A stretch of 64,000 nucleotides of DNA from a virus, in IMG/VR virus record IMGVR_UViG_3300037608_000032, positions 1 to 64,000 of that record, one strand, 5' to 3'. Both the position numbers and the translations under genes were made by a program. This document shows, piece after piece, positions 3,245-61,012 of the stretch. The notes under the pieces were generated by a model that made no database searches, was not told the origin of the DNA, and saw only the letters and a program-made list of their open reading frames with translations. The number at the start of each line of letters is the position of its first letter. Position 1 is the stretch's first letter.

Positions 3245-3702
3245 GCGAACCTCGGAGCAGGTTGGGCGGGGCGGGGGAAGATGTCGATGTCGGGCGGGCA
3301 CCCGTGGATGTCGGTCCAGAGTCTCGTCACGAAGCCCCGGACAACGCCGGAGACGTAGTGCCCGTCCAGCAGGAACCAGATGGCCGCCGACACGTTCCGG
3401 TCTTCGGCGTGGGCCTCGTAGAAGGCCCTGATAGTTAGGTTCAGGTGCGACCAGTTACCGGCCCATCGCCGGAGCTGGTGCGCGACGTTGACCGAGCACC
3501 CTTCGCCACCATGGAGCGCCGTGGTGAGCGCCTCGAACCGGACCTGAAGCGGCTCCCAGGGGAGCGCGCGCAGAGGGGCGAGCTCCAGGTGGAGTGCTAC
3601 CACCTCGGCGATGTCGAGGATCTCGGGCGGCGCGATTGACGCGGGGTGCGTAGGCCGTCGGCGGTTTCGGGGGTCGATCAAGGCTGGGCTCCTTCGGGGC
3701 AA
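3241..3702 (-). CDS. hypothetical protein
   Basis: Fills gap; ATGA overlap with the sigma-like gene; start uncertain. Confidence 0.6.
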   Translation of the reverse strand: MPRRSPALIDPRNRRRPTHPASIAPPEILDIAEVVALHLELAPLRALPWEPLQVRFEALTTALHGGEGCSVNVAHQLRRWAGNWSHLNLTIRAFYEAHAEDRNVSAAIWFLLDGHYVSGVVRGFVTRLWTDIHGCPPDIDIFPRPAQPAPRFA

Positions 3703-3764
3703 CTACACCCGACGAAGAGCCCCTAACCGGTAGCTGGTTAGGGGCAAGTGGAATCCGGTTACTT

Positions 3765-4895
3765 TCAGCGAGCTCGAAGGGATTCCTGCACCTTCCTGGC
3801 GATGTCCGACTGGAACCCGCCGATCTGGTTGGCGACTTCGAGCACCCGATCGTTACCGTCTGCCATGGCCCGGACTTCTCGGACCATCTGCGAGAGGGCG
3901 TTGTTGGCTTCGGCCAACTTCTGGACGTTGGCCAGCCCGGCGGCAGGGACGTTGCTCATCAGCTCGACAGCGGCGTCAAGCACCTTGAGGGCGTCCGCAA
4001 GCGCCGGGGCAACTGCCTTGCACACAAGAGCGTGAACGGCGGGGCGCTCTTCCGGCTTCTGCCAGAGGGCGTCGGTCAGCACCAGCAGGTCGTCGGTCGT
4101 CGCGAAGTCCCTGCCTGCCAGCGCGGCCATAGCCTGCACCAGCTTCGCGAGCTTGCAGAGCCGACGGTCGGAGACGTAGATCCCGAGCTCCGTCGCGATG
4201 GCGTCCTGGAGGTCCAGGAGCGCATCTTCGACGGTCTCGGGGATCGTGACCATGGAGACCGCTTCGCGAGCCGTCTCAAGGTCAGCATGGGTCAAGGTGA
4301 CCGACACGACGGGGCGGCCATGGGACCGAAGGAGCGCCTTCTTGGCGTCCCGGTCCTTGATGGGGTTAACCCACCGGCGCAACATGAACCGGTCATAGAG
4401 GGCATCCAGGGTGTTGTCGGCGGGGAGTTCGTTGCTGGCCCCGATGACGATCTCGAGGGGGCAAGTCTGGCGCGTGGTCCCGTTGTCGAAGGCCCGCTCG
4501 TTCAGGAGGGTCAACAGGGCATTCAGGATCGGCGACCCTGCCTTGAAGATCTCGTCCAAGAAGGCCACCTGAGCGGTGGGGAGGTAGCCCTCTGTCTTCC
4601 GCTCGTAGCGGTCTTCCTGGAGGCCCGTGATCGAGTAGGGCCCGAACAGCTCTTCGGGCATGGTAAATGCGGTCAGCAGGCGGTCGAAGGTCTTGGACCC
4701 GAGCGCACCTGAGACGGCGTTGGTGAGGGCACTCTTGCCCGTTCCTGGGAGCCCGAGAAGGAGGACGTGCTCGCGGGCCAGGAGAGCAACGCAGAGGACC
4801 GTGGCTTCGGCCTGGCGCTCGAAGAAGTTCTTCGAGATGTCGGCTCGAAGGTTGGCGACTTTGACGAGGGCTGCGGTCTGGGCGGGGGTGAACAT
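3765..4895 (-). CDS. MoxR/RavA-family AAA+ ATPase
   Basis: GLPGTGKS Walker A, PEELFGP, FLDEIFKA Walker B, LLNER, GASNELP, ALYDRF. Confidence 0.92.
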   Translation of the reverse strand: MFTPAQTAALVKVANLRADISKNFFERQAEATVLCVALLAREHVLLLGLPGTGKSALTNAVSGALGSKTFDRLLTAFTMPEELFGPYSITGLQEDRYERKTEGYLPTAQVAFLDEIFKAGSPILNALLTLLNERAFDNGTTRQTCPLEIVIGASNELPADNTLDALYDRFMLRRWVNPIKDRDAKKALLRSHGRPVVSVTLTHADLETAREAVSMVTIPETVEDALLDLQDAIATELGIYVSDRRLCKLAKLVQAMAALAGRDFATTDDLLVLTDALWQKPEERPAVHALVCKAVAPALADALKVLDAAVELMSNVPAAGLANVQKLAEANNALSQMVREVRAMADGNDRVLEVANQIGGFQSDIARKVQESLRAR

Positions 4896-4920
4896 CGGGG
4901 CTCCTTGCTGGGCGGGCGGG

Positions 4921-4978
4921 TCAAGAAGCAACTGCTCTTGATGTCATAAGTATAACTTGAATCACGTTAGACTGTCAA
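4921..4978 (-). promoter_or_regulatory. early sigma70-type promoter with operator and 5' hairpin
   Basis: TTGACA-18-TATACT; TAAC-gtgattcaa-GTTA; TCAAGAGC-AGTT-GCTTCTTGA hairpin. Confidence 0.85.
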
Positions 4979-5207
4979 CGGGTATCCAAGAAGATTCTCG
5001 CACCTGTAGCGATTTATTTTCATCGACCGGGAGCACCTCCGACACCGGGAAGGCCGTCCCAGCGTACCCAGGACGAAGCGCCTGCGAGTCGAGGAACACG
5101 CTGTAGACCTCGGGCTCGCGGTAGTCGGGCGGGGCCATGCGGACGTAGTTGATCGAGCCGGGCTGGCCCTTGGCTTGAACTCGGGCGCCGGGGAGAAGAT
5201 GAGACAC
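4962..5207 (-). CDS. hypothetical protein (81 aa)
   Basis: AGGAGG RBS before GTG. Confidence 0.7.
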   Translation of the reverse strand: MSHLLPGARVQAKGQPGSINYVRMAPPDYREPEVYSVFLDSQALRPGYAGTAFPVSEVLPVDENKSLQVRESSWIPVDSLT

Positions 5208-5215
5208 AGGACCTC

Positions 5216-6772
5216 CTACCGTCTGACAGGAATGACCTTGGACGCGGCCTTTTCCGCATCTTCGGCCTTGTCGATGTCTATCGATTCATCGCAGAAGCTC
5301 CGCACCGCCGGGGAGATGGACCCGCCACCTACCGTCATTCCGAAGACCCGCAGGCCGAGGGCCGCCTTGGCGGCCTTGACCATGTCGAGCACCTTCGGCG
5401 ATGCGTCAGCGCACCCGTCAGTGATGAAAAGCAAGTCCGCGCGGGGCTGGCTCTCCAGATACTCCAGGCCCCAGAACAAGGGCGCGTTGAAGTCCGTCCC
5501 GCCCCGTGCGTGCCGGGTGCAGAGTTCAAGGGCCAGGTCTATGACCTTGCCCCAAGGCTTCGCGGTCGCTCCCTTCGGCGATGTCGAGGGGAGGGTCTCA
5601 ACCTTGCCGTTGGTCCGGGCAATCCAGGCGTCAGAGATCCCGTGGTTGAACATGACCACGGCGACTTCGCGCTTCTCTTTCTGCCCGAGCTGGAGGCACG
5701 CGAGAATCGCGGCCTTTGCCCAGGTCTCGCCAGCGCCTTTCATGCTGCCCGACTCGTCAGCGAGGATGCAGATCGGGCCCTTGCCCTGCGGGGTCTTACC
5801 TTCGACCTTGTACTGGGGGAGGGACCTTTCAGCGAGGCCCTTCATGACGAGCACCTTCAGCGCCGGGTTGCCGAGCAATGCGAGCTGAGAGGGAAGCACG
5901 CGGGGAAGGTCGTTACCAAGCGTGACACCCGAGATGAGCCCGCAGGCGCGGGGGTCCTTGCGGGCCTCGGTGCGCTCGGCAAGGCGAACGAGCTTCCCGG
6001 CCTTGCGAAGGACCGCGCGAAGGTTCGGGTTGCGGAGCAAAGTCTGGGCAAGCTCCAACCGCCTGGAGTCCTTCTGCTCATGCGTCGGAGGCGCATAGGC
6101 GCTTCCAGGTGCGAGCGACTCCATGGCCTCGCGGGCTTCCGAGACCTGCTTCGATGCCCTGTCACAAGCGCCACGGAGAGCAGCTCGTAGCTGCTGACCG
6201 GCCTTGCCGAGTTGGTCAGAACGGCGCTGGCCTTGACCGTCGCCTTCTTCGTTGCCATCGCCGGGGGTGGGCTGGCCCTCACCAGCACCGGAGCCCTGGC
6301 CCGGCTGCTGGGCTTGCTGTTCGGCTTCCTGGTCCACCGACTTGAGAAGTTCGGGGAGCCTTCCGGCGATGGCGGAAAGAACCTCTTGCGCTGCCATCGC
6401 CGAGAAGTCGGGATCGCCCTTGACAGCCTCACGAAGAGACGACCACTCCGGCAGCTCGTCGGCGATGGCGTGCGCGGACGGTGCCCAGCCCTTCGCGTCA
6501 GCGACCTTCTCGGGGTCGTTGTACAACCGGGCGAAGGTCTCAGCTCCGAAGGTCTCGGAGTCGGTCTTGACCGCCTGCATGGCGGCCTCGCGCTCTTCCA
6601 CGGTCGCCAGTTTCCGCATGGTGGGGCGATGGTGCTCGCGCACCGCCTCCGCCACATGGGAGACCTGCGAGGCCATCGCCGGGAGCCGAGCGTCGAAGAG
6701 GAACCGCTCCCACCTGGACGGGGTGTAGGCCAGGTCGGTGGAAGCCTGAAAATGAAAGGCGGGGGCGCTCAC
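5216..6772 (-). CDS. VWA-domain protein (ViaA-like partner of MoxR ATPase)
   Basis: MIDAS motifs DESGSM, GGTDF, FITDG; GNDLPRVLPSQL; KGPICI. Confidence 0.9.
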   Translation of the reverse strand: MSAPAFHFQASTDLAYTPSRWERFLFDARLPAMASQVSHVAEAVREHHRPTMRKLATVEEREAAMQAVKTDSETFGAETFARLYNDPEKVADAKGWAPSAHAIADELPEWSSLREAVKGDPDFSAMAAQEVLSAIAGRLPELLKSVDQEAEQQAQQPGQGSGAGEGQPTPGDGNEEGDGQGQRRSDQLGKAGQQLRAALRGACDRASKQVSEAREAMESLAPGSAYAPPTHEQKDSRRLELAQTLLRNPNLRAVLRKAGKLVRLAERTEARKDPRACGLISGVTLGNDLPRVLPSQLALLGNPALKVLVMKGLAERSLPQYKVEGKTPQGKGPICILADESGSMKGAGETWAKAAILACLQLGQKEKREVAVVMFNHGISDAWIARTNGKVETLPSTSPKGATAKPWGKVIDLALELCTRHARGGTDFNAPLFWGLEYLESQPRADLLFITDGCADASPKVLDMVKAAKAALGLRVFGMTVGGGSISPAVRSFCDESIDIDKAEDAEKAASKVIPVRR

Positions 6773-7647
6773 TTCGACACCGCCAGGAGGCGCATGGCCT
6801 CGTCCTGGCACTCGGTGACCTTGGCTCGGAGGTCCTGCAACGAGACCTCGAGGGTCTTCTCGTAGAGGTCCGCGAGCCCGAGGAGGGTCGCGAGCTGGCC
6901 CAGGACGTTGGCCTGGGAGTCCGTGCGGATCTTTCTCGAAGTCGTCCGCCAGTCTTCGAGCTGCTTCTCGACATCGAGGAGCTGACCGAGGACGTGGTCT
7001 TGGACGCCAGCCCCGACGCCTTCGCGGCTATCCCCGTCGTTCTCCACCATGCAGAGGTGGAACTTGCACCCGCCCAACTGGCCCACGATCCTCTTGAGGC
7101 GCTTCACGATGTCCAGCGAGGCCAGCGGGGCGAAGTAGATCCCGCCCTGGCGACGGAGGGAGATAGCCGACGCGGCTTCGAGCTGAGGCACGAGCACCGA
7201 GGGACGAAGGAACCTGTGATCGAGGTACTTCAGGAAGTCGTCGGCCGACTTGATGAAGCCCTGGCCTACCTCGCTCGGGTACGCGTTGACCCACTCCCTG
7301 CTGACCGTGTCGTAGCACAGGGTCTCGGTCTGGCCCCACGCTACCTCACGAGACCCCTCCCGGCGATGCTGGAGGATACCGACGTACACCCTACCGCCGT
7401 CGATGGCCGTGACTTCGGCCTTGTAGCGGTCGTTGTTCCCGCGACCGGTAGCCCAATTCCCAGCGGCCTTGCGGATGGCCGACACGGGGTCGATGTCGGG
7501 GACCGAGATATCCGTGAGACCTTCGGACGCGAGCACGTCTCGAAGGTGCTCTGGCGTGACCTGGCTGGCATCAAGGTCCCACCAACAGAAGGTCCCCATG
7601 CGGGGGTCGATGGAGGTGACGTCGGGGGAGGTGGAAGTGAAGGGCAT
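6769..7647 (-). CDS. hypothetical protein of the type found beside phage/ICE MoxR-VWA pairs
   Basis: CAGGAG RBS; GTFCWWDL, LRRQGGIYFAP, C-terminal coiled coil; coupled to the VWA gene. Confidence 0.75.
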   Translation of the reverse strand: MPFTSTSPDVTSIDPRMGTFCWWDLDASQVTPEHLRDVLASEGLTDISVPDIDPVSAIRKAAGNWATGRGNNDRYKAEVTAIDGGRVYVGILQHRREGSREVAWGQTETLCYDTVSREWVNAYPSEVGQGFIKSADDFLKYLDHRFLRPSVLVPQLEAASAISLRRQGGIYFAPLASLDIVKRLKRIVGQLGGCKFHLCMVENDGDSREGVGAGVQDHVLGQLLDVEKQLEDWRTTSRKIRTDSQANVLGQLATLLGLADLYEKTLEVSLQDLRAKVTECQDEAMRLLAVSK

Positions 7648-8009: not shown

Positions 8010-9684
8010 TAGTTATCTGCACCTGTTCGCACTTTTCTTTCACGACCCTCTTTTTTCTCGCCTTCGGAGGTTCGGAGCACCAGACCAACCTCGCGACGCA
8101 CGCCATGCCCTGCTTGTCCACCCGTGGGCCTGGCCGGCGCACGTACCGACCGGCGCTATGGATGCTCGGGTCTGCATGGCCTCCGACTACGCCGTGGGCG
8201 TGGAGCGCGTCCAGGACCACGCGGTCAAGGGACGCGAGCATCCGCTGGACGTGAGGATCGGCGTAGAAGGCGCGTGGGTCCCACCTTCCTTGACGGAGCT
8301 TCACGACGACCTGCACGCCCGTTCCTGACGTCCTGACCATGGCCATCGTACCCGACAAGACCGGGTGGTTTACCAGGATGGCCTGGACTTCTTGGGCAGC
8401 TTCTGCAAGGTGCTTCCACTCGGGCATGGTCTCGATATCGTCGATGTCAACGCCGACCCATTCCGTGTAGACGGGCACGAAGCCGGTAGGCTGAAGGATG
8501 TTCATGCTCTCACGACCGGACGAAAACTCGCGGACTCCGGTGAACCCGTGCAGGTCCATGGAGACGTACAGGTCGGGAAGAACGGCTTTCGGACGGCAGA
8601 AAAACATCATCGTGTTCGTGGCCGCCAAGGCACCGTAGTAGACCTTCTCGTTCTTGGCGCGGCCGTCGGCATAGTGGAGAAGGTCCGTCAACGAGGTAGC
8701 AGCGGAAAAAGCCCGGTGGAACCCACGTCTTACAGACTCGTTCTCGCCACCGTAGTGCTTGCCCATCGTGAACCCGTACCCTTGGGGGCGGACTACATAG
8801 TCAGGACTGGAGATGTCCAAGGGGTCATCGTAGAAGGCCAGTCCTGACGGCTTGCCGAGTACCATCGGGGCCGGCCCGGGGTCCCCAGCTTCAAGGGAGC
8901 GGTCAACGAGAAAGAGCGCATTCGACGGGGTAGAAACAGGCACGTCCCAATAAGACCCCCTGTGGGGTAGACCGGGGGTAGCGATGCCCCCTGGGTCTCC
9001 TGACTCACAGAGTCTTAGACAGGCGGGACTGGCCTTGACTGAGACGACGGGCTGGAAGAGGACGGCAAGGTCTTCAAGGACCTTGGCCTTGCCGATGATG
9101 GTCTCACACGAGAAGCAGAAGACGTACCCGGTCTCTTGGTTGACCACGGCGTTCGGGGAGTGGCCTTCGTGGTTCGGGCATCGGATGAAGACCTTCTGGC
9201 CCTTGCGATGTCCAGGGACCTGGACTGCGGGGCCGTAGCACCGGTGGTCCTGGACTGGGGGAGCGTGCCCTTGACCTGCGAGGGCTTCGAGCACCTGCTC
9301 GGCAATGGCATGCGCTTCGGGGGTGACTCGGTAGTGGGTGCCCCTACCTTGCCCGGGGGCGAGGTCTCGAACCGGGTAGCCGAGTCGGGCAGCTTCAGGG
9401 GTGGTGACTGGCTCGGCTCCGAGTAGAGCGTAGACGTCGGGGAAGACCTGGCGGGCGATGTCGCGGGAGATGGTCCCGTGCGGGACGAAATAGCCAGCGC
9501 ATCGCTCGGAGATGTAGGAGCCATCGGACGCGAGAAAGGCGCGGACTACGTGGTCGTGCAGGATGACGATGGCAGCGCGGAGTCGGGTGGGCGTGAAGCC
9601 CAGCAGTTCTTCAACGAGGAGGTCAGCCCAGGTGGGGGCCTCGACTCGGGCGAGCGCAGCGCCGGTCAACGCCGATCCTTGCAT
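7993..9684 (-). CDS. AEP/RepB-like primase protein with CHC2 zinc finger
   Basis: CPNH...CFSC zinc finger; GVDIDD (DxD), RTSGTGVQ (motif II variant), ADPSIHSAGRYVRRPG. Confidence 0.6.
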   Translation of the reverse strand: MQGSALTGAALARVEAPTWADLLVEELLGFTPTRLRAAIVILHDHVVRAFLASDGSYISERCAGYFVPHGTISRDIARQVFPDVYALLGAEPVTTPEAARLGYPVRDLAPGQGRGTHYRVTPEAHAIAEQVLEALAGQGHAPPVQDHRCYGPAVQVPGHRKGQKVFIRCPNHEGHSPNAVVNQETGYVFCFSCETIIGKAKVLEDLAVLFQPVVSVKASPACLRLCESGDPGGIATPGLPHRGSYWDVPVSTPSNALFLVDRSLEAGDPGPAPMVLGKPSGLAFYDDPLDISSPDYVVRPQGYGFTMGKHYGGENESVRRGFHRAFSAATSLTDLLHYADGRAKNEKVYYGALAATNTMMFFCRPKAVLPDLYVSMDLHGFTGVREFSSGRESMNILQPTGFVPVYTEWVGVDIDDIETMPEWKHLAEAAQEVQAILVNHPVLSGTMAMVRTSGTGVQVVVKLRQGRWDPRAFYADPHVQRMLASLDRVVLDALHAHGVVGGHADPSIHSAGRYVRRPGPRVDKQGMACVARLVWCSEPPKARKKRVVKEKCEQVQITSDRLT

Positions 9685-9967
9685 GAAAAGGATGGACGGG
9701 TAAGCCGGGTGCGGTTAGAATCGGGGTGGTTGACCATTGCGACTGGTTGACTCGGGTGATCAGGTGGCCCGTCTTTCTACCGGTTGAGTCCCGATAGAAG
9801 TGAGTGCAGCCTGGACGGTTCTGGTGTACACCCCTCCGAGGCCCGGCGTCAAGGAGGGGCTACACCTTTTCGAGCGAGGCGAGGGAGATGACGGGGGAGC
9901 TACTACATCGGGAGCTGGCTATAGTGGCTTGCACCTGTAGAGACCTTTCCGGCGATGTAGGTACCAG

Positions 9968-10276
9968 ATGCCCAGAAAGAAGAAGACCGACCTTGAAGGA
10001 CGAGCCCGTCAGGTAGCTTCTGCCGGAGACTGGATATCCATTTCGGAAATAGAACTTTGGGAGGGAAACCCGAGGGTCAACGACGGGGATAACTCCGCGA
10101 CGGAAGACGTGGCAGCGAGCATCAAGAGGTTCGGATTCATCGCCGGGGTGACGGGCTGGCTTCGGCCGGACGGGTCGGTGCGGATGGTGGCAGGGCACAC
10201 AAGGGTCAAGGGGCGCAGATGGACTCGATGGGCGAAGGAGCACAACCAGGACCCAGGACTGGGAGCCCTTGAATGA
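9968..10276 (+). CDS. short ParB/Srx N-terminal domain protein (possibly truncated)
   Basis: WEGNPRVN, VAASIKRFGF, VAGHTR; stops soon after the catalytic motif. Confidence 0.7.
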   Translation: MPRKKKTDLEGRARQVASAGDWISISEIELWEGNPRVNDGDNSATEDVAASIKRFGFIAGVTGWLRPDGSVRMVAGHTRVKGRRWTRWAKEHNQDPGLGALE

Positions 10277-22673: not shown

Positions 22674-22966
22674 CCGACCGACCGACCATCATCACCCTTG
22701 ACCCTACGACCCTGAAGGACAGCCTCCAGACCGACCCCGCGCTGCTGGCCTTGATGGACCGAGGGTACTCCATCGCCAGTACGTTGATCGTCCAGGACGG
22801 GGAGGAAGGGAGGGGACGCCTTGGGCTGATCCTCGTGCCGCCAGCCCAGCCCCCGCCTACTCCGGCGCTGTCTTGGCCTACCTGGACGCCTTGGGCCGTC
22901 GGGCTGGCCTTGGGGCTCCTGGGGGCCTTGGTGGCTCTGCTGTCGGTGTTGGTGGCTCGTGCCTGA
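22670..22966 (+). CDS. small membrane protein
   Basis: C-terminal hydrophobic helix; coupled on both sides. Confidence 0.65.
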   Translation: MTDRPTIITLDPTTLKDSLQTDPALLALMDRGYSIASTLIVQDGEEGRGRLGLILVPPAQPPPTPALSWPTWTPWAVGLALGLLGALVALLSVLVARA

Positions 22967-51188: not shown

Positions 51189-51797
51189 ATGTTCGCTCTC
51201 ACCAACATCCTGGTCAACTGGCGTAGGTCCACCGCCCTGGTGCTCGACTCCCGCACGCCAACGGGGACCATGGCCGCGTCACGGGCCCCTGTTCGTACTA
51301 GTTGCATTCAGGTGCAGCTAACTGGTACGCCTACCGGGACCGTAACCGTGGCGGGGTTGGTCGGGGGCGTGGCCGACACCGAGGTCTTGACGTGGGCTGG
51401 AGTCGCGGGGGCACGGGTCACGGTGAAGGAGTTCTCCACGGTGGCGTTCACCTCGTCACTCACCGGCGCTGTCAAGGTCGAAGCGTCGGCCGTCGGCATG
51501 GACGGGACCCCGCAGGCCGGGACCTACGCCGTCAGGTCAAGTTGGCCCGTGCAACTCGCAGCGCCGGGGTCTGGCCAGCGATGGCCTGGGCAGGTGCCTG
51601 GACATGAGCTGACTTCGGACCGGGTATGTCGGGTGCCCTACGAGGAGACGTGGGCTCCGCGTGAGGGAGACGTTGTGGACGTCGTGCAACCCGCCACAGG
51701 AGAGACCTTCCAGGTCTTCGGGCGGCCTACTGTGCAGGTCGTTGGGATGGTCCAAGACCACTGGCAGGTCAAGCTGACCCAGCAACAGGGGGCCTAA
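51189..51797 (+). CDS. virion protein, head-closure-like C-terminus
   Basis: Beta-rich; PREGDVV..FQV..HWQVKL; position among neck genes. Confidence 0.6.
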   Translation: MFALTNILVNWRRSTALVLDSRTPTGTMAASRAPVRTSCIQVQLTGTPTGTVTVAGLVGGVADTEVLTWAGVAGARVTVKEFSTVAFTSSLTGAVKVEASAVGMDGTPQAGTYAVRSSWPVQLAAPGSGQRWPGQVPGHELTSDRVCRVPYEETWAPREGDVVDVVQPATGETFQVFGRPTVQVVGMVQDHWQVKLTQQQGA

Positions 51798-53636: not shown

Positions 53637-56615
53637 ATGCCCCTTCCCGTAGATCAGGCTCACGATGTCCTGGTCATCATCCCCACCGTCGCCGTGCCCC
53701 GCGTGCTTGTGCCGGCATTCCAGAAGCTCTGCACGACCCTGGACGGGCTACGGGTCCACGTCGTCCTGGCGGCCAACCCAAAGGACTCGGAAGCCGCTGG
53801 GGTAGCCCTTGATGAGTGCATCCGGATCTGGCGGTCCTACGACCCCGCTGAGTGCCACCTCACGACCTACAACCACGGCGCGCTCGCAGGCTTTGGGGGA
53901 GCTATCAACCTCGGCCTGCGGGCAGTCCTTGGGGACCTGTCCAACGCCTGCACCGTGACCAAGACCTCCGGGGAATGCGGCGTGTTCTGGGGTGTGCCCC
54001 GCCTGACGGTCGTCTACAACGACGACCTTGTCGCAACGCCGGGATGGATCCAGGGCCTGCTACGAGCCCTCGACTCCGAGACGGTGTGCGAGTGGTCGGA
54101 GCTTCCGACCCAGGACCCCGGGACCAAGGGCTACACCCGCCCGATCCGTCGGATGGCCGACTACGGCAAAGTGGGGCTCGTAGGGCCCGCCTCGAACAAC
54201 GCGGCGGGAATCCAGGGCCAATGCCAGGCCACGCTGAAGCAGATTCAGGACAAGGGCTACGACCACTTCGCCGGGGAATGGGCGGAACAGAACGAGGGCA
54301 ACGTCTTGACCGCTACCTTCCTGTCGGGCTTCTGCCTCGGTATCACGCGGGAGTGCATGGAGGCCCTGACCGTCTACTCCGGCGATGGCGAGTTCTCCTG
54401 GCTCTTCGACGAACGGTTCAAGGTCGCTGGCTACGAGGACAACGACCTGTGCATGCGTGCGGACCTTGCAGGGTTCCGTGCGGTAGTCGCTGGGGATGTC
54501 TTCGTGCCTCACATCGGACACCAGACTTTCGACGCCAGCTTCCCGGAGATGCGGCGTGGATTGGCAAATCGCCTCACCTACTACGACAAGTGGCGCGAGT
54601 GGGTCCAGGACCATGGACGGCGCACCGTGGCGGCCTACCGAGTGCGGTTCGACGTACCAGGGGACCTGGGGCTCTTTCGGGAGTCCCTCCGGCGATGTGC
54701 CTCCCTGGTTGATGGCGTGGCGGTGCTGCTGACCGGCAACCCGGCGGCGGTGCTCGACTCGGCAGAGTTCAAGTCGGCGGGCATGACCGCAGATAGTGAC
54801 TTGCACCTGTGCCAACTTTGTGCAGCCAAGCCGGGGAACGCTCACGCCTATGTCTACGCCTGGGTTTCGCAGGTGCTCTACAAGACGGCGGGCTCGCGGT
54901 TCAGCCAGCCGAAGGTCGTCGAAGACGTCTTCGTAAAGGCCTCGGACTGGACGGCCCCGATGAACGAGCGAGACGAGCGCAACGTCCTCCTGGCGATGGC
55001 CGAGTCTATCAAGGCGGACTGGGTGCTCTCCATCGATCACGATGAGGTCCTCGAACCCCGCCTCACCCGTGCTCATGTCGAGCGCATGATGCTTCACCCT
55101 GACCCCTTGGTCCAGTGCTGGGACCTGGCCTTCGTCAACCACTGGGAGAATCCCCGCATGTACCGCGTGGACCGGCCTTGGGGAGACGGCGGAACGTGGA
55201 CGGGCGGGATGCGAGGATACCGGTTCTATCGGGTCAACCACGCGGCCCCTCGTCGGATTCTCGCAGGGGGTCATGCCGGCTTGCACTGCGGCAACACCCC
55301 CGGAGTGGACCTGATGGCCAAGCGGGTTTCTGGGGTGCGTTTCAGGCACTTCGGCTACATGAATTCCCGAGATCGATTCCGGAAAGAACGACGGTACAAC
55401 GTCCAGGACCCGACCCCTGACCCGCTCTTGGTCGGTGGCACGTCCTACGCCCACATCACGCGGGACGAAGCCATGGTGCTCTCCGCGTTCGTGCCCGAAA
55501 ACGGGATCGGGCTCCACATGCTCATGCACGAGGGGGAGTCTGCGGACGACCTCGGACGGCTGTTGGATGGTCTCTACGCGGTAATGGACCGGGTGGTGCT
55601 CGTGTGGACGGGGAAGTGGCTGAACGGAGACAAGGAGTGGCTCGTTCACCCCGGCGATGTCAACATCGGGGACCCGGCGATTCTCGAAGACGCGGGATAC
55701 TGGCCGATGTCGGGCCCCTCGGAAGCCGTCGCCAAGATGGCCGCGCACTTCGGGTGCGAGTGGCTTCATCATCCGTTGGCAGACGACCTCGGAGCGGCTC
55801 GCAACGCGGGGCTGGACGCTCTCCAGGGCACGCCTGGCATGGGTTGGGCCGTGTTCTTCGACCCTGACGAGCACGTTCCCCCACAGGCTCCCGTGGTCCT
55901 GCGACGGATGGCGGAAGCCGGGGACTGCTGGGGATGGATGTTCCGGTTCCGGAACACCTACCAGGACGGCACGGCCAATCAGTCAGAATCGGTTCGGATG
56001 TCCAGGCTGGATCCTGACCAGCGCATGCGCGTTCACGGGCGCGTGCATGAGGGCTTCTCGCGTGCGGTGCGCCAGCTCGTAGACGACGGGTTCGGCTCAG
56101 TGCTTCGGGTCTGCCCGTTCATCGTCGCCAACACCGGGCTCTCAAAGGACCCGGAAGAGATCCAGGCGAAGTTCGACCGTTACCGGCGACTCACCGAGCT
56201 TCAGCTTCAAGAAGACCCGAAGGACCCTGGCGCATGGGTCACGCTCGGGTTGTACTGGGCAAACGAGGGATGTCATGACACGGCTGCGGAATGCTTCTCG
56301 CGCGGGGTGCTGTGCGCCGACAAGGAATACCTGCCCTTCCAGGAGCTTGGGCTTCACCTGCTCCGCCAGGCCCGAGACATGTTCGCGGAAGCCGTGGAGC
56401 GGATGTCGGGGCATCAGATGCAGGCCCCCTGGCAGGCAGTGGTGGACTTCGCAGACAAGGCGGCCCCACCCATGAAAATCATGGGCACCGTCGGGGAATT
56501 CTGGCACCGGGCATGGTCGGACGGAGAGGCCATGAAGACCTTGCCTGGATCCGAGCGACGTACCAGGATGGTCGATGGCGTGGAGTATCCAGACCTGACC
56601 GACCCCCGCGATTAG
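53637..56615 (+). CDS. multi-domain glycosyltransferase (three GT2-like domains + TPR)
   Basis: VYNDD..GFCL..FDERF..YEDNDLC; WVLSIDHDE..HFGY; ARNAGL..FFDPDE..GRVHE; TPR-like DPKDPGAWVTLG..AAECF. Confidence 0.88.
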   Translation: MPLPVDQAHDVLVIIPTVAVPRVLVPAFQKLCTTLDGLRVHVVLAANPKDSEAAGVALDECIRIWRSYDPAECHLTTYNHGALAGFGGAINLGLRAVLGDLSNACTVTKTSGECGVFWGVPRLTVVYNDDLVATPGWIQGLLRALDSETVCEWSELPTQDPGTKGYTRPIRRMADYGKVGLVGPASNNAAGIQGQCQATLKQIQDKGYDHFAGEWAEQNEGNVLTATFLSGFCLGITRECMEALTVYSGDGEFSWLFDERFKVAGYEDNDLCMRADLAGFRAVVAGDVFVPHIGHQTFDASFPEMRRGLANRLTYYDKWREWVQDHGRRTVAAYRVRFDVPGDLGLFRESLRRCASLVDGVAVLLTGNPAAVLDSAEFKSAGMTADSDLHLCQLCAAKPGNAHAYVYAWVSQVLYKTAGSRFSQPKVVEDVFVKASDWTAPMNERDERNVLLAMAESIKADWVLSIDHDEVLEPRLTRAHVERMMLHPDPLVQCWDLAFVNHWENPRMYRVDRPWGDGGTWTGGMRGYRFYRVNHAAPRRILAGGHAGLHCGNTPGVDLMAKRVSGVRFRHFGYMNSRDRFRKERRYNVQDPTPDPLLVGGTSYAHITRDEAMVLSAFVPENGIGLHMLMHEGESADDLGRLLDGLYAVMDRVVLVWTGKWLNGDKEWLVHPGDVNIGDPAILEDAGYWPMSGPSEAVAKMAAHFGCEWLHHPLADDLGAARNAGLDALQGTPGMGWAVFFDPDEHVPPQAPVVLRRMAEAGDCWGWMFRFRNTYQDGTANQSESVRMSRLDPDQRMRVHGRVHEGFSRAVRQLVDDGFGSVLRVCPFIVANTGLSKDPEEIQAKFDRYRRLTELQLQEDPKDPGAWVTLGLYWANEGCHDTAAECFSRGVLCADKEYLPFQELGLHLLRQARDMFAEAVERMSGHQMQAPWQAVVDFADKAAPPMKIMGTVGEFWHRAWSDGEAMKTLPGSERRTRMVDGVEYPDLTDPRD

Positions 56616-57295: not shown

Positions 57296-57315
57296 CGACA
57301 TCGCCGGAGTAGTCC

Positions 57316-57973: not shown

Positions 57974-58508
57974 CGGGGCGCGGGTTCAGGTCCCTCCGGC
58001 GATGCGGGATGTCATCGAGGCAATCCTGGCCGACCGGGACTCTGCCTTGTCCGCCCGACTGGCGGCGATGGAAGACGATTTGTCGAGGGCGTCGAAGATC
58101 ATCACGGGCTTGATGCGCGAGAAGCACCTGTCCCTCGGACAGGACGACGAAGTCCCCCAAGAACCCGTGGACAAGGTCTGGTGCTGCCAGAAGTGCGGCT
58201 CGCAGCAAGGGTACTACGACGAAGCCAACGACGTGTTGAGGGTCCGCTACAAGGAGCACGTCGTCCACGTCCACACCGGGATCGGTGGGTGGATCCGGCT
58301 GGTCTGCCGGAAGTGCGGGGAGTTGAACGTCTTGGAGTATGCGCCCTCGGTGACCGAGGTAGACGGCGGGCTCCCGGAGGTCTCTGTGTCAGGCGACCGG
58401 CTGGTGCTTGACGAGCCCCTCCTGGCAGAGCTGCAAGACATCGTGCGCCGCGGAAACGGTACGGCGACGGTCAAGTTGACCCAGGCTCCCGAGCCCTCCC
58501 CGCAATAG
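57966..58508 (+). CDS. zinc-ribbon protein
   Basis: CQKCG..IRLVCRKCGELN. Confidence 0.7.
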   Translation: MGNGARVQVPPAMRDVIEAILADRDSALSARLAAMEDDLSRASKIITGLMREKHLSLGQDDEVPQEPVDKVWCCQKCGSQQGYYDEANDVLRVRYKEHVVHVHTGIGGWIRLVCRKCGELNVLEYAPSVTEVDGGLPEVSVSGDRLVLDEPLLAELQDIVRRGNGTATVKLTQAPEPSPQ

Positions 58509-59147: not shown

Positions 59148-59164
59148 CTCGTCCTTTCCCGACC

Positions 59165-59204
59165 AAGGGCCTTGGGGTATCATGCCTACAGGCCCTTTTC
59201 TTTT
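59165..59204 (+). terminator. intrinsic terminator
   Basis: AGGGCCT..AGGCCCT then TTTCTTTT. Confidence 0.75.
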
Positions 59205-59211
59205 CTGGAGA

Positions 59212-60006
59212 ATGAACATGGACTGGACTGAAAAGTGGGTAGACGCCCTGACGAAAGACGGCGTGAACGTACGAGACCTTCGCGGGGTGCTGCCCCACAA
59301 GACCGATACAGAGTTCATGCGGCGGGACCCGGTGAAACTCCACGGGATGACTCTTCATCACGCGGCGATCCGGGGAAACACCGAGAAAGACCTCGTCAGT
59401 ATCGCCCGATACCATGTCGGGCCCAACCACATCGCCGGGGGAGGCTGTCCGGGGCTCTGCTACACCGGGGCGGTGCTCGGAGATGGGACCTTCTGCCTGG
59501 CCTGGAACTTGAACGTGACGACGTGGTCTCAGGGAGACGGGAATTCCAAGCACCTTGGGATCCTGGTGCTCGGAGACTTCTACTCCCCGTCGAACCCTAC
59601 CGGCTTCGACCCTACCCCTCCCCAGTGGGATAGTTGCTTGCAGGTGTGGCGTACTTCTGCGCAGGTCTTCGGGTGGTCGAAGAACCAGCTCTTCGGGCAC
59701 TTCGACTTCGGGAAGCCGGCGTGCCCAGGTGACACGCTTCGGAACCTTGTCATGGACATCCGGGAAGGAATCGAGCCTGAAAAGATGGTTCTCCTACCCG
59801 ACCTCGGGATGGACCTCCCGTCAACGGCACGGCACCAGAAGGCCCTGGAGATGCTCGGCTTCTCACCCGGCGCTGTAGACGGTATCTGGGGACCGATGTC
59901 CAAGGCGGCGCTGGCGCGGTTCCAGGCGTCCGCCGGGCTTCCCGTGGACGGCGTGTGGGGAGCGAACACCCAGCGGGCCATCGACGCGGCTCTGAAGAAT
60001 CTGTGA
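59212..60006 (+). CDS. endolysin: amidase-2 + peptidoglycan-binding domain
   Basis: TLHHA, IARYH, FGHFDF..ACPG; DGIWGP..FQ..GLPVDGVWG. Confidence 0.9.
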   Translation: MNMDWTEKWVDALTKDGVNVRDLRGVLPHKTDTEFMRRDPVKLHGMTLHHAAIRGNTEKDLVSIARYHVGPNHIAGGGCPGLCYTGAVLGDGTFCLAWNLNVTTWSQGDGNSKHLGILVLGDFYSPSNPTGFDPTPPQWDSCLQVWRTSAQVFGWSKNQLFGHFDFGKPACPGDTLRNLVMDIREGIEPEKMVLLPDLGMDLPSTARHQKALEMLGFSPGAVDGIWGPMSKAALARFQASAGLPVDGVWGANTQRAIDAALKNL

Positions 60007-60128
60007 CCACGGGCCCCGTCACCGTCGAAGCTGACCAGCCTCCGCTACCCCGGCGGCGGGTGCTCGTGGTCTTGCGGGTGGGCAGGGCCGTAGAGACGGG
60101 CTACTACCGAGGCAGGAGGCTAACCACC

Positions 60129-60674
60129 ATGGCCGAAAAGACCGAAGTCAAGACCCCTTCCCCGATGCTCCCCGCAACGTCCGCCGACTGGCAGGACTTG
60201 TTGGAGCGCATGTTTCCGTCCGGCGTTCACACCCTGCACGACCTCAGTGGGAACGCCTACGAGGTGCGGACGGTGCTCTCTGCGAGACGAGAGACCGAGC
60301 TTCTGCGGGTGCTCTCCAAGGTGGCAGAGCTGCCCGTGGGCGACTGGACTCAAGGCATGAAGACCGCGGGAGCTACACCCCAGGAGACCATTACGGGGCT
60401 GGTAGCGGTGCTCGCGCGGGTGACTTCTGATTCGCGGGCCCTCGACTTGCTCGACGAAGCCTTCTGCCTTGTGTTCCGGCCGGTGGTTGACCGGGCCCTT
60501 GCCGCGTGCTCGGACCTGACCGAGGGCCTCGACAAGCCCTCTGCTGTGGACGTCTTCGACACCGTGGAGATGGTACAGGCCCTCCTCCCTTTCGGCGCGA
60601 GGGCGGCCGTGAAGGTGATGCGGCTGGTCCAGACGGCGCGAGCCAAGACCGCGAGTTCTCCCCTCGTGAACTGA
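60129..60674 (+). CDS. tail assembly chaperone (gpG-like)
   Basis: AGGAGG RBS; position before tape measure; slippery site at 60587. Confidence 0.75.
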   Translation: MAEKTEVKTPSPMLPATSADWQDLLERMFPSGVHTLHDLSGNAYEVRTVLSARRETELLRVLSKVAELPVGDWTQGMKTAGATPQETITGLVAVLARVTSDSRALDLLDEAFCLVFRPVVDRALAACSDLTEGLDKPSAVDVFDTVEMVQALLPFGARAAVKVMRLVQTARAKTASSPLVN

Positions 60675-61012
60675 AGCAGGCGCTCGGAATCGTCTTCACT
60701 TCCGGGCATGACTTGGAGGTTCTTGACCGATGGTCATGGGAGCAGGTGCAACTCGTTGCCGAGTGCATCGCCCTGCACAAGGTCCAGCAGCTTGAGATGA
60801 TTCTCGGGCCCATCGCTACCGGGCTTGGAGCCGAGTATAAGTCCTCGCAGGTGCGAGAGACTACCCGACGCCAACCCGGCGATGCGAAGCGACGGACGAC
60901 GCTGAATCGAGAAGACCCGGCGGCCATCAAGCGGGCTCAACAGCGGGACGCCGCGATCATAATGGCGGCGAAGTCCAACGCCAACGGCTTCAGGTTCAAA
61001 GTCGAAGGGTAG
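60587..61012 (+). CDS. tail assembly chaperone -1 frameshift extension (gpT-like)
   Basis: C CCT TTC heptamer at 60587-60593; the -1 frame is open to 61012 with LDRWSWEQV. Confidence 0.7.
   Translation, partial: PFRREGGREGDAAGPDGASQDREFSPRELKQALGIVFTSGHDLEVLDRWSWEQVQLVAECIALHKVQQLEMILGPIATGLGAEYKSSQVRETTRRQPGDAKRRTTLNREDPAAIKRAQQRDAAIIMAAKSNANGFRFKVEG

What the first reader, a model, noticed from the sequence alone, without database searches (positions are those of the whole stretch)
3464..60884. Dispersed asymmetric motif YCCGGCGATG, about 35 copies
Seen (manual count, may be incomplete). CCGGCGATG on +: 6363, 7360, 9949, 10764, 12894, 14177, 17350, 19965, 23778, 34405, 37096, 39456, 43664, 45539, 50923, 54379, 54689, 55651, 57996, 60876. 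On -: 3464, 6256, 6674, 10138, 11933, 17133, 24379, 28165, 32615, 33610, 34583, 34961, 36072, 57299, 59430. A simple base-composition estimate gives only 1-2 copies. Every copy I found is preceded by a pyrimidine. It occurs in all three coding frames (PAM, S/PGD, RRC/W) and between genes. CTTTCCGGCGATGTAGG is shared upstream of the first ParB-like gene and terL, with a variant before the second ParB-like gene. Inference: a DNA-level signal such as a stoperator-like repressor site, ParB loading site, Chi-like site or self mark.
Basis: partly seen in the sequence, partly recalled or inferred. Interest (0 to 1): 0.7.

Follow-up and report, generated by a model that had tools for sequence, protein, structure and literature searches.

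The report
Dispersed 15-bp recognition motif in phage
An uncultured groundwater phage and its closest relatives carry dozens of copies of one short asymmetric DNA word scattered through their genes on both strands, which looks like a landing site for a phage protein whose job is still unknown.

Summary

The full site is about 15 bp and asymmetric: a G-poor pyrimidine tract, then CCGGC-S-M-TG (67 copies, 0.89 per kb). It is enriched in all six strand and frame classes, so it acts at the DNA level.

Relatives in one TerL clade keep it at mostly different positions. One uses CCGGCCATG instead, and another uses both forms. More distant relatives lack it.

It fits none of the known kinds as a member:
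- Stoperators: 62 of 67 sites lie inside genes, and orientation is only 63% sense.
- Phage nick motifs: sites lie on both strands.
- parS: the site is not a palindrome, and ParB-like genes do not track the motif.
- Chi: the site is too long, and it is not abundant in 301 sampled bacterial genomes.

My best guess, at low confidence, is that a phage-encoded protein reads the site and makes a strand end there, either a nick or a primer start.

This scan noted the same motif earlier in an overlapping window of this genome (e1-6137465), not on other DNA.

The parts
3464..3472 (-). CCGGCGATG, sense in gene
6256..6264 (-). CCGGCGATG, sense in gene
6363..6371 (+). CCGGCGATG, antisense in gene
6674..6682 (-). 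CCGGCGATG, sense in gene
7360..7368 (+). CCGGCGATG, antisense in gene
9949..9957 (+). CCGGCGATG, intergenic, 10 nt before ATG of ParB-like gene 9968-10276; inside 17-mer 9945-9961
10138..10146 (-). CCGGCGATG, antisense in gene
10764..10772 (+). CCGGCGATG, sense in gene
11933..11941 (-). CCGGCGATG, antisense in gene
12894..12902 (+). CCGGCGATG, sense in gene
14177..14185 (+). CCGGCGATG, sense in gene
17133..17141 (-). CCGGCGATG, antisense in gene
17350..17358 (+). CCGGCGATG, sense in gene
19965..19973 (+). CCGGCGATG, sense in gene
23778..23786 (+). CCGGCGATG, sense in gene
24379..24387 (-). CCGGCGATG, antisense in gene
26158..26166 (+).
28165..28173 (-). CCGGCGATG, antisense in gene
32615..32623 (-). 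CCGGCGATG, intergenic, 43 nt upstream of leftward gene 31489-32571
33610..33618 (-). CCGGCGATG, intergenic, 45 nt upstream of leftward gene 33367-33564
34405..34413 (+). CCGGCGATG, antisense in gene
34583..34591 (-). CCGGCGATG, sense in gene
34961..34969 (-). CCGGCGATG, sense in gene
36072..36080 (-). CCGGCGATG, intergenic at the divergent junction, 10 nt from promoter-like GCTACTAC of gene 36121-36459
37096..37104 (+). CCGGCGATG, sense in gene
39456..39464 (+). CCGGCGATG overlapping the stop of the Mom-like gene, upstream of terL; inside 17-mer 39452-39468
43664..43672 (+). CCGGCGATG, sense in gene
45539..45547 (+). CCGGCGATG, sense in gene
50923..50931 (+). CCGGCGATG, sense in gene
54379..54387 (+). 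CCGGCGATG, sense in gene
54689..54697 (+). CCGGCGATG, sense in gene
55651..55659 (+). CCGGCGATG, sense in gene
57299..57307 (-). CCGGCGATG, intergenic, antisense to flanking genes
57996..58004 (+). CCGGCGATG, sense in gene
59430..59438 (-). CCGGCGATG, antisense in gene
60876..60884 (+). CCGGCGATG, sense in gene
62322..62330 (-).
1917..1925 (-). CCGGCGCTG variant, sense
2604..2612 (-). CCGGCGCTG variant, sense
5858..5866 (-). CCGGCGCTG variant, sense
9657..9665 (-). CCGGCGCTG variant, sense
11219..11227 (-). CCGGCGCTG variant, antisense
14738..14746 (-). CCGGCGCTG variant, antisense
14762..14770 (-). CCGGCGCTG variant, antisense
15730..15738 (-). CCGGCGCTG variant, antisense
16114..16122 (-). 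CCGGCGCTG variant, antisense
19473..19481 (+). CCGGCGCTG variant, sense
22862..22870 (+). CCGGCGCTG variant, sense
23466..23474 (-). CCGGCGCTG variant, antisense
23518..23526 (-). CCGGCGCTG variant, antisense
32500..32508 (-). CCGGCGCTG variant, sense
37336..37344 (-). CCGGCGCTG variant, antisense
43563..43571 (-). CCGGCGCTG variant, antisense
47743..47751 (+). CCGGCGCTG variant, sense
51463..51471 (+). CCGGCGCTG variant, sense
51559..51567 (-). CCGGCGCTG variant, antisense
59867..59875 (+). CCGGCGCTG variant, sense
16558..16566 (-). CCGGCCATG variant (the main form in relative G001), antisense
22021..22029 (-). CCGGCCATG variant, antisense
30327..30335 (+). CCGGCCATG variant, sense
28775..28783 (+). 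near variant CCGGTGATG with pyrimidine tract, 35 nt before ATG of ParB-like gene 28819-29421

Best explanation
SHOWN. The motif is a selected DNA-level recognition site. It spans about 15 bp and is asymmetric: C-C-H-Y-Y, then CCGGC-(G/C)-(A/C)-TG, then not-A. It is kept at about one site per 1.1-1.9 kb across the phage genome. It lies on both strands, in every reading frame, and mostly inside genes. Selection acts on density and roughly even coverage, not on fixed positions. The word drifts within the phage clade: G at position 6 in this phage, C in relative G001, and both in G003.

INFERRED. My favoured mechanism is that a DNA strand end is made at each site. This would be either a site-specific nick, as in the localized single-strand interruptions of T5-, phiKMV- and tf-like phages, or the start of an RNA primer by the phage's primase-helicase, which carries two zinc ribbons. 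In the primer reading, the conserved 3' end M-T-G has the form of a primase initiation triplet and the conserved stretch is about one primer long. Either way, each kilobase or two of DNA would gain an entry point for replication, recombination or clamp loading.

No call shows a nick, a primer or a binding protein. The choice of mechanism is an inference from site anatomy and distribution alone.
For: - Real and selected: 39 copies against 9.85 +/- 2.02 after synonymous shuffling (z 14.4). The C variant has 24 copies against 2.72 (z 13.7). CCGGCG alone is not enriched (161 against 143). All.
- DNA level: all six strand/frame classes are enriched 3-14 fold. In contrast, 31 of 41 copies of GGTGCTCG sit in one frame.
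- Site anatomy: on 138 sites from six contigs, information is confined to -5..+10, G occurs at position -1 in 1 of 138, and there is no second half-site within 30 nt.
- Clade-wide with a specificity switch: G001 has CCGGCCATG 16 times (Markov-3 expectation 1.0) with the same pyrimidine tract. G003 has 13 CCGGCGATG, 8 CCGGCCATG and 8 CCGGCCCTG. The dense carriers form a TerL clade with 99/97 support. Complete relatives G006-G009 (and the 71%-complete G010) do not exceed the reversed control.
- Density, not position: sites kept between genomes are 2 of 5 (G001/G003) and 1 of 5-6 (G000/G003), not above the 9-mer baseline.
- Even coverage: G001 spacing CV 0.53, P 0.0009. G000 main variant largest gap P 0.04.
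- Likeness to nick motifs: a 9-nt core with two-fold degenerate positions, relatives whose main variant differs by one base, and about 88% of sites in coding sequence, equal to coding density (passages of PMC3517423 and PMC11780129). Here 62 of 67 sites lie in genes against a coding fraction of 0.93.
- Primer reading: DnaG-type primases start at the middle base of a triplet such as d(CTG), and their zinc-binding domain sets specificity (passages of PMC2978363). The phage primase-helicase has two Cys4 clusters ahead of its Toprim domain.
Against: - No physical evidence exists. Only assembled contigs were available for the three runs that hold this DNA, so read ends could not be examined.
- Against nicking: every described phage nick motif sits on one strand only. 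Here the split is 32 + to 35 -. The density is about three times higher than in tf. The known nick sites are bunched rather than even.
- Against priming: known primase sites are 3-5 nt long, not 15. An orthologous primase-helicase (37-42% identity) is present in the motif-less relatives G006-G009. Site strand does not follow the persistently positive GC skew (with the strand lists).
- No nickase-like family was seen among the 60 of 82 called genes scanned with Pfam.
- Two points speak for a tie to transcription instead. There is a modest sense bias (39:23 in genes against a 47:53 null; 14:1 in the first 150 nt of genes). There is also a 2.7-fold excess near promoter-like GCTACTAY words (9 against 3.4).
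Confidence: 0.33

Rival explanations
1. The motif is a binding site of a non-catalytic phage regulator or architectural protein. This would resemble a stoperator: a monomeric two-domain protein reads the 9-bp core and the pyrimidine tract and damps or organises transcription genome-wide. Orientation would matter near gene starts.
For: [quoted passage not shown]
- There is a sense bias, 39:23 in genes and 14:1 in the first 150 nt of genes. By my reading of the list, 13 of 16 intergenic sites are in sense orientation.
- Nine sites lie within 60 bp of promoter-like GCTACTAY words against 3.4 expected.
- All three phages keep a site just upstream of the promoter of the gene homologous to 36121-36459.
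Against: - 62 of 67 sites lie inside genes, whereas stoperators sit in promoters and short intergenic spaces.
- 37% of genic sites are antisense and are themselves enriched 5-fold, whereas stoperators lose function when reversed.
- No integrase or repressor family was found in the 60 of 82 genes scanned. The only HTH hit is weak (gene 2326-2643, HTH_3, E 0.0012), and that gene also has homologues in motif-less relatives.
- The sense bias near starts could simply reflect selection against the Shine-Dalgarno-like purine tract that an antisense site would place in the mRNA. This is my inference.
Confidence: 0.25
2. The motif is the target of a sequence-specific DNA modification. The invariant CA on the complementary strand (5'-CA-K-S-GCCGG) or the CCGG cytosines would be modified by one of the phage's enzymes: the Mom-like protein, the C5 methylase or the other methyltransferases.
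For: The phage encodes:
- a Mom-family protein (38580-39467, E 9e-21);
- a C5 cytosine methylase (24153-25643, E 2e-37);
- two further methyltransferase-like proteins, plus a GNAT/ABC, PanD and ParB-like cluster.
One site overlaps the stop codon of the Mom-like gene.
Against: - Being a modification target does not explain a 15-fold enrichment or even spacing.
- The C5 methylase has no homologue in the motif-rich G001 fragment.
- Mom-like genes are present in motif-less G002 and L126, and absent between the conserved gene and terL in motif-rich G003.
- The site does not fit the phage Mu Mom consensus as I recall it. That consensus is recalled, not taken from a call.
Confidence: 0.1
3. The motif is a site for a host factor. 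It could be a Chi-like signal that tames a host RecBCD/AddAB-type nuclease, or a site for another host DNA protein that the phage has accumulated.
For: The sites are dispersed, density-selected and free in position, and they lie on both strands as a linear genome open at both ends would need. The phage avoids many 6-bp palindromes strongly (CAGCTG 0 against 18.8 expected, GGCGCC 2 against 37), so host nucleases do shape its sequence.
Against: - About 15 bp carry information, whereas known Chi sites are 5-8 nt (recalled).
- Sister phages differ at one base, and one of them uses both forms.
- In 301 sampled Pseudomonadota genomes, the highest count of YYCCGGCGATGY that I saw in the table was 70 in 6.3 Mb (0.011 per kb), against 0.33 per kb in the phage.
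- Two MAGs that hold distant relatives have 65 and 17 copies of YCCGGCGATG in 3.8 and 3.6 Mb, with reversed controls of 39 and 12.
- The host phylum is unknown, so other phyla were not sampled.
Confidence: 0.08
4. The motif is a ParB-type loading site, that is, parS half-sites for the phage's ParB-like proteins.
For: Two ParB-like genes are present (28819-29421, phrog_620 E 1.8e-25; 9968-10276, E 1.2e-6). Each has the motif or a one-base variant 10-35 nt before its start codon.
Against: - The site is not a palindrome and has no partner half-site.
- Neither protein reaches Pfam ParB_N.
- phrog_620 was not found in the motif-rich fragments G001 and G003, but is present in the motif-less complete genomes G006 and G007.
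Confidence: 0.04
5. The enrichment is a compositional or coding by-product, arising from codon-pair bias, palindrome avoidance or a repeated peptide.
For: This genome does have many 8-mers that exceed a synonymous-shuffle null, and it shows strong palindrome avoidance.
Against: Those other 8-mers are frame-locked, and this one is not. CCGGCG itself is not enriched. The flanks carry a strand-specific pyrimidine tract. Relatives with about 67% DNA identity keep the word at other positions.
Confidence: 0.02

Closest known systems
Nick-associated motifs of phages with localized single-strand interruptions (tf TACT/RTGMC; Rembedalsseter group WACTRTGAC; phiKMV group CGACxxxxxCCTA/CTCCGG; T5)
   Same: Both are short asymmetric words of about 9 nt with one or two two-fold degenerate positions. 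Both are enriched more than ten-fold over chance. Both are conserved across a phage clade that shares little DNA identity, and related phages differ by one base in the main variant. Both lie in coding sequence in proportion to coding density and more often on the coding strand (passages of PMC3517423 and PMC11780129; here).
   Different: Known nick motifs lie on one DNA strand only and number 4-14 per 40-46 kb, bunched towards one part of the genome. Here there are 32 + and 35 - sites, 0.89 per kb, and spacing more even than random. No nick has been shown here.
Stoperators of cluster A mycobacteriophages (L5, TipsytheTRex)
   Same: Both are dozens of copies of an asymmetric 13-15 bp site spread over the whole genome, of a kind read by a monomer. 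In both, the specificity differs between related phages (passages of PMC9283540; PMC6550527 seen as a search listing only).
   Different: Stoperators sit in promoters and short intergenic gaps, and their orientation follows transcription strictly. Here 93% of sites are inside genes and 37% of genic sites are antisense. No repressor or integrase was found.
Primase initiation sites (DnaG d(CTG)/d(CTA); T7 gp4 5'-(G/T)2GTC-3')
   Same: The site ends in M-T-G, with the form of a triplet whose 3' base would be cryptic. A spacing of 1-2 kb is on the scale of Okazaki fragments; that figure is recalled. The phage has its own zinc-ribbon primase-helicase. For T7, flanking sequence beyond the pentanucleotide also matters (PMC12839067, abstract start in a search listing only).
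   Different: Known sites are 3-5 nt long and, as far as I know, are not over-represented as long words. The primase-helicase is shared with motif-less relatives.
Nick or primer-junction 'enhancer' of phage T4 late transcription
   Same: This phage has its own sliding clamp (1170-2252, phrog_947 E 2e-57) and promoters that consist of a -10-like word only. In T4 a nick anywhere within kilobases, if it lies in the non-transcribed strand, loads the clamp that activates late promoters (passages of PMC2988020). The sense-strand bias here points the same way.
   Different: In T4 the loading sites are not encoded in the sequence. Nothing here shows nicks or clamp loading.
Chi sites
   Same: Both are dispersed, density-selected oligomers that act wherever they lie.
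   Different: Chi sites are shorter, belong to the host and are polar. This word was not abundant in the bacterial genomes sampled.

Membership tests
Stoperator system (cluster A mycobacteriophages) | More than twenty copies of an asymmetric 13-mer-like site across the genome | tested here: met
   There are 39 CCGGCGATG and 67 CCGGCSMTG sites in 75 kb. The site is asymmetric and about 15 bp long.
Stoperator system (cluster A mycobacteriophages) | Sites lie in promoters and short intergenic spaces | tested here: not met
   62 of 67 sites lie wholly inside called genes, against a coding fraction of 0.93.
Stoperator system (cluster A mycobacteriophages) | Orientation strictly follows the direction of transcription | tested here: not met
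   Genic sites are 39 sense to 23 antisense, and the antisense classes are themselves enriched. Only the first 150 nt of genes show a strong bias, 14:1.
Stoperator system (cluster A mycobacteriophages) | Cognate immunity repressor (HTH plus stoperator domain) in a temperate phage | tested here: inconclusive
   No repressor or integrase family was found in the 60 of 82 called genes scanned with Pfam. There is one weak HTH_3 hit. The other 22 genes were not scanned with Pfam.
Phage localized-nick (sci) motifs | Short asymmetric consensus, enriched, conserved across related phages with shifts of the main variant | tested here: met
Phage localized-nick (sci) motifs | All sites on one DNA strand | tested here: not met
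   32 sites on + and 35 on - in the contig. G003 has 15 + of 30.
Phage localized-nick (sci) motifs | A ligatable nick at the site in virion DNA | not testable with these tools
   The three runs that hold the DNA are kept as contigs only, so there are no read ends.
Chi | 5-8 nt word, abundant and strand-skewed in the host chromosome | tested here: inconclusive
   The site carries about 15 bp of information. It is not abundant in 301 Pseudomonadota genomes or in 2 MAGs. The host is unknown and other phyla were not sampled.
parS / ParB | Palindromic site made of two half-sites | tested here: not met
   The site is asymmetric, with no information outside -5..+10.
parS / ParB | Cognate ParB co-occurs with the sites | tested here: not met
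   phrog_620 matched in G000 (2 matches), G006 and G007 (both motif-less). It did not match in the motif-rich fragments G001 and G003. Because these two are fragments, absence is not proven.
Primase initiation site | Triplet with a cryptic 3' base, initiation at the middle base | tested here: inconclusive
   The invariant 3' end M-T-G is compatible with d(CTG)-type sites, but no enzyme test was possible.
Primase initiation site | Sites lie on the lagging-strand template | not testable with these tools
   The replication mode and origin are unknown. There is no strand preference overall despite positive GC skew throughout.
Interspersed repeat element (REP/MITE-like) | Copies share extended flanking sequence or inverted repeats | tested here: not met
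   There is no conservation beyond 15 bp in 138 sites.

The most novel reading that the evidence does not exclude
The sites are sequence-encoded entry points for the phage's own sliding clamp. A phage nickase or primase makes a 3'-OH end at each 15-bp site, and the clamp (gene 1170-2252) is loaded there. The clamp then slides to the -10-only GCTACTAY promoters, where it activates a sigma factor that lacks its -35-reading part.

This would hard-wire the 'mobile enhancer' of T4 late transcription into the genome sequence. It would explain the even spacing, the presence of sites inside genes on both strands, and the excess on the non-transcribed (sense) strand.
Probability: 0.08. Interest if true: 0.9.

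Novelty: new variant of a known kind. Interest (0 to 1): 0.6.

Why it matters
Genome-wide asymmetric words are rare handles on how phages manage their DNA. Stoperators revealed a new mode of repression, and the function of nick motifs is still unknown after fifty years.

This site has a sharper definition than most. It is a 15-bp logo, carried by one clade, with a one-base switch of specificity between sister phages. It also breaks the rules of both known kinds, because it lies on both strands and mostly inside genes. That makes it a clean test case:
- a single native-DNA sequencing run of the phage fraction would show whether the sites are nicked or modified;
- the G/C switch offers a built-in specificity control for finding the protein that reads the site.

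If the sites turn out to be strand-end or clamp-loading sites, they would link replication and late transcription in a lineage outside the T4 family.

Tried and rejected
1. The 17-mer CTTTCCGGCGATGTAGG was scanned in IMG/VR and hit 24 stretches. Alignment of the flanks showed that most belong to a few unrelated conserved genes of other phages, and none resembles the window. I dropped them as relatives.

2. A single-protein TerL scan of IMG/VR found no relative, and megablast of 15 kb against cultured phages found no match. The best cultured TerL hits are at about 21% identity. Relatives came only from an alignment-based scan.

3. I looked for analogous motifs in the complete distant relatives G006-G009. 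Their top words are intergenic promoter-like elements (G006, G009), a repeat inside coding sequence with conserved flanks (G008), or a frame-locked codon effect (G007). None is of the same kind.

4. Host search. The Atlas neighbours of the epimerase gave mixed phyla. The motif is not abundant in 301 Pseudomonadota genomes or in 2 MAGs. Other phyla were not sampled, and the host remains unknown.

5. Sequencing runs. Three groundwater runs hold the DNA, but only as contigs. There were no differences and no read ends. One of two contig breaks in run X3 (3455-3484) overlaps the site at 3464-3472. That is a single case, probably a neighbouring variant, and I do not use it as evidence.

6. Search for the protein that reads the site. 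The genes shared by G000 and G001 but absent from G006-G009 are a DinG-like helicase (20376-22673), 22670-22966, 22959-23648, 31489-32571 (ASCH), 34196-35185, 73901-74347 and the Mom-like gene.
- 34196-35185 has only one relative in the protein collection and no PDB match.
- 22959-23648 folds as long helices (pLDDT 82.5, pTM 0.46) with no fold match at E <= 0.001.
- PDB sequence searches of three more proteins gave nothing usable.
No candidate emerged.

7. Positional conservation of sites between genomes is not above the baseline for 9-mers, so I make no claim of conserved positions.

8. Literature. A full-text search for the three words found only primers and constructs among the 15 of 734 papers listed. 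I found no description of this motif. This claim rests on that one search. Supplements of the papers read were closed and may hold site tables for nick motifs and stoperators.

Full report
THE OBSERVATION

The window is the first 64,000 bases of a 75,042-base IMG/VR virus contig with 63% G+C. CCGGCGATG occurs 37 times in the window, 21 on + and 16 on -. The mean over 100 dinucleotide-preserving shuffles was 1.48, and none came near 37. The whole contig holds 39 copies, each preceded by C or T, while the reversed control word occurs 0 times.

In 500 synonymous shuffles within my 82 called genes the count was 9.85 +/- 2.02 (largest 18) against 39 observed. With codons permuted within genes it was 7.33 +/- 1.45. 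The five intergenic copies were left in place in these nulls. The gene calls are my own crude caller, based on codon log-odds plus RBS and start-codon bonuses. They are not a curated annotation.

WHAT THE SITE IS

One-mismatch counts show a second common form, CCGGCGCTG, with 24 copies against 2.72 +/- 1.55 in the synonymous null. TCGGCGATG has a weaker excess, 15 against 4.3. CCGGCG alone is not enriched, 161 against 143.

A logo built on 138 sites from six contigs of the clade shows information only from -5 to +10:
- a G-poor pyrimidine tract, with G at position -1 in 1 of 138 sites;
- CCGGC;
- G or C;
- A or C, about 2:1;
- TG;
- then not A.
There is no second half-site within 30 nt, so the site is asymmetric and about 15 bp long.

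In the contig CCGGCSMTG occurs 67 times (32 +, 35 -; 0.89 per kb) against 5 for the reversed control. Of these, 62 lie inside called genes, where 93% of the sequence is coding. All six strand/frame classes exceed both nulls by 3-14 fold. This genome has other 8-mers above the synonymous null, but the ones I examined are tied to a frame. For example, 31 of 41 copies of GGTGCTCG sit in one frame. The motif is therefore a DNA-level signal, not a coding or compositional by-product.

THE GENOME AROUND IT

Pfam and PHROG scans covered 60 of 82 called genes with Pfam and 20 with PHROGs. They show the following.
- A leftward block holds a sliding clamp (1170-2252), a MoxR ATPase and a VWA protein.
- A replication and recombination block holds helicases, a PD-(D/E)XK nuclease, an AAA_24 protein, a Toprim-DnaB primase-helicase and a DinG-like helicase.
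- A DNA-modification set holds a C5 methylase, two other methyltransferase-like proteins, a ParB-like protein, ABC/GNAT and PanD.
- These are followed by DUF1643, a Mom-family protein, terL, portal and capsid genes, and sugar-modifying enzymes.

The primase-helicase has two Cys4 clusters ahead of its Toprim domain. No integrase, repressor or nickase-like family was seen.

The two contig ends share a repeat, and both encode pentapeptide repeats. Two independent Logan assemblies give a 74,873-base contig. The genome is therefore probably complete at about 74.9 kb, despite CheckV's estimate of 68%.

RELATIVES

No cultured phage is close: the best TerL hits are at about 21% identity. A TerL alignment retrieved 80 viral, 80 metagenome and 2 MAG loci. 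Motif density separates them.
- The window phage has 0.89 sites per kb.
- G001 (L033) has 0.67 per kb.
- The strain group G003/G005/L125 has 0.63-0.75 per kb.
- L130 and L131 are intermediate at about 0.3 per kb.
- The high-GC and other lineages are at 0-0.2 per kb, with similar reversed controls.

The dense carriers form one TerL clade with 99/97 support. One low-density, 73% G+C member, L124, is nested in that clade with weak support. Four complete genomes at 44% TerL identity, plus the 71%-complete G010, do not exceed the control. The top words of the four I fetched, G006-G009, are of other kinds.

The most telling result is a switch in the word itself.
- G001 uses CCGGCCATG, 16 copies against a Markov expectation of 1.0, plus 6 CCGGCCCTG, with the same pyrimidine tract.
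- G003 uses both G and C at position 6: 13, 1, 8 and 8 copies of the four forms.
- The window phage uses G in 63 of 67 sites.

Sites are not held in place. Between G001 and G003 (76% DNA identity) 2 of 5 aligned sites persist. Between the window phage and G003 (67%) 1 of 5-6 persists, and that one reads CCGGCGATG in one genome and CCGGCCCTG in the other. Neither value exceeds the baseline for identical 9-mers. Selection thus keeps density, not position.

DISTRIBUTION

Spacing is more even than random in G001 (CV 0.53, P 0.0009; largest gap P 0.0015). It is marginally even for the main variant in the window phage (CV 0.78, P 0.07; largest gap P 0.04). It is not significantly even in G003. Positions within genes are uniform.

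Orientation shows a modest sense bias. In genes of the window phage the split is 39:23, against a codon-permutation null of 47:53. The bias is strong only near gene starts. Over the three phages the first 150 nt of genes hold 14 sense sites and 1 antisense site. Sites near starts are 31:10 and the rest are 44:36 (Fisher P 0.03). By my reading of the list, 13 of 16 intergenic sites are sense.

An antisense site would place a Shine-Dalgarno-like purine run in the mRNA. Selection against that near start codons could explain the bias without any role in transcription. This is my inference.

Nine sites lie within 60 bp of the promoter-like word GCTACTAY, against 3.4 expected. This word was a lead from earlier notes, and it is the top 9-mer in G001. 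The other 112 of 121 sites do not lie near it.

HOW IT MOST LIKELY WORKS

What is shown is a clade-specific, density-selected, largely orientation-tolerant 15-bp site whose sequence drifts by single bases between sister phages. That pattern is what co-evolution with a phage-encoded, monomeric reader would give. It argues against a host factor. The word is also rare in 301 sampled Pseudomonadota genomes, at most 0.011 per kb by my reading of the table against 0.33 per kb here, and rare in two MAGs.

Among known systems the anatomy is closest to the nick-associated motifs of tf-like phages. Those have a 9-nt core, degenerate R/M/W positions, a one-base difference in the main variant between relatives, and about 88% of sites in coding sequence, equal to coding density. 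The defining one-strand rule is broken here.

The site also reads well as a primer template. It ends in M-T-G, the form of a DnaG-type initiation triplet. The conserved stretch is about 13 nt upstream of the cryptic base. The pyrimidine tract would template a purine-rich primer. The spacing is of Okazaki size, a figure I recall rather than took from a call. Against this, no known primase needs 15 nt, and motif-less relatives share the primase.

I therefore favour, at about one chance in three, that a strand end (a nick or a primer) is made at these sites. A non-catalytic binder of the stoperator type is the main rival, at about one in four. A modification target, a host factor, ParB loading and a compositional artefact follow. 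ParB loading is weakened, and the Mom and C5-methylase links are weakened.

An earlier follow-up in this scan (e1-6137451) proposed a sigma factor with a clamp-docking tail next to the phage clamp. I confirmed only the clamp gene.

In T4, a nick in the non-transcribed strand, at any distance up to kilobases, loads the clamp that activates late promoters (passages of PMC2988020). A preprint and a paper reporting that phage Mu also uses the clamp were seen as search listings only. If the sites here create strand ends, they could be sequence-encoded clamp-loading points. I give this the status of the most novel reading, not of a finding.

LIMITS

- No physical data on the DNA were available.
- The host is unknown.
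- Most relatives are fragments, so absences are weak evidence.
- Gene calls are my own.
- Several statistics rest on small numbers.
- Literature statements come from passages found by term search (PMC3517423, PMC11780129, PMC9283540, PMC2988020, PMC2978363) or from search listings (PMC12839067, PMC6550527, PMC12867686 and its preprint). No paper was read whole, and no supplements were seen.

Noticed in passing
window 1-440 and contig 74478-75041 (L221:10478-11041): Both contig ends encode pentapeptide-repeat protein on the - strand, and bases 1-99 recur exactly near the other end within a tandem repeat. Two Logan assemblies give a 74,873-base contig. The genome is probably complete and closed at about 74.9 kb, with one pentapeptide-repeat gene across the junction, although CheckV rates it 68% complete.
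   Followed up: partly
whole contig: Several 6-bp palindromes are very strongly avoided. Observed against Markov-expected counts are CAGCTG 0 against 18.8, GTGCAC 1 against 22.1, CACGTG 1 against 21.8, GGCGCC 2 against 37.2 and CGTACG 2 against 18.2. CTAG is 13 against 121. CCGG is not avoided (718 against 742). This suggests pressure from several host type II restriction systems.
   Followed up: no
window 8018, 9930, 14160, 14214, 20495, 36467, 44941, 48623, 54802, 58514 and others: TGCACCTGY occurs 19 times in the contig on both strands, with 16 copies inside genes. It has conserved flanks: upstream roughly A-T-A-G-K-T-G-M-T, downstream often TCGGACTT. In one search, three copies (9930, 14160 and 48623) have a CGGCGATG word within about 25 nt. 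A further GCACCTGC lies 14 nt before the site at 39456. This looks like a second dispersed element of unknown role.
   Followed up: partly
window 39482: terL probably starts at the in-frame ATG at 39482 rather than at 39569. That would give 572 aa, in line with the 564-585 aa of its homologues. The 17-mer that carries the motif then ends 13 nt before the start codon, much as at the ParB-like gene 9968.
   Followed up: partly
window 20376-23648: A block made of a DinG-like helicase, a 98-aa protein and a 229-aa all-helical protein is shared with motif-rich G001 but is absent from four complete motif-less relatives. The same holds for 31489-32571 (ASCH domain), 34196-35185 (near-orphan, itself carrying three sites) and 73901-74347.
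   Followed up: partly
window 2326-2643: A small protein lies between the sigma-like gene and the clamp gene. It has weak HTH hits, including Sigma70_r4 at E 0.036, and homologues in G003 and G006-G009. It could be a detached region-4-like module for the region-4-less sigma noted earlier in the scan.
   Followed up: no
window 22862, 54379, 57299: Three sites are preceded by CTACT, which gives CTACTCCGG (CCTACTCCGG at 22862). This equals the 3' half of the phiKMV-group nick consensus quoted in PMC3517423 (CCTA/CTCCGG). Three of 67 is few, and the tract is degenerate, so this is a weak lead only.
   Followed up: no
relatives G006 and G009 (loci L204-L208, L217-L220): Distant complete relatives carry their own high-copy intergenic words: GTCCACCTCGC in G006 (28 copies of the 9-mer, 23 intergenic, 26 on one strand) and a long element containing GAAACTATG in G009 (21 copies). 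These are probably promoter or leader elements of the same family-wide transcription system as GCTACTAY.
   Followed up: partly
window 16981-19224: The primase-helicase has two separate Cys4 zinc-ribbon motifs (C33/36/61/64 and C253/256/262/265) ahead of the Toprim domain, and a long acidic and basic tail. A further protein, 7993-9684, has a weak DnaG-type zinc-ribbon hit.
   Followed up: no
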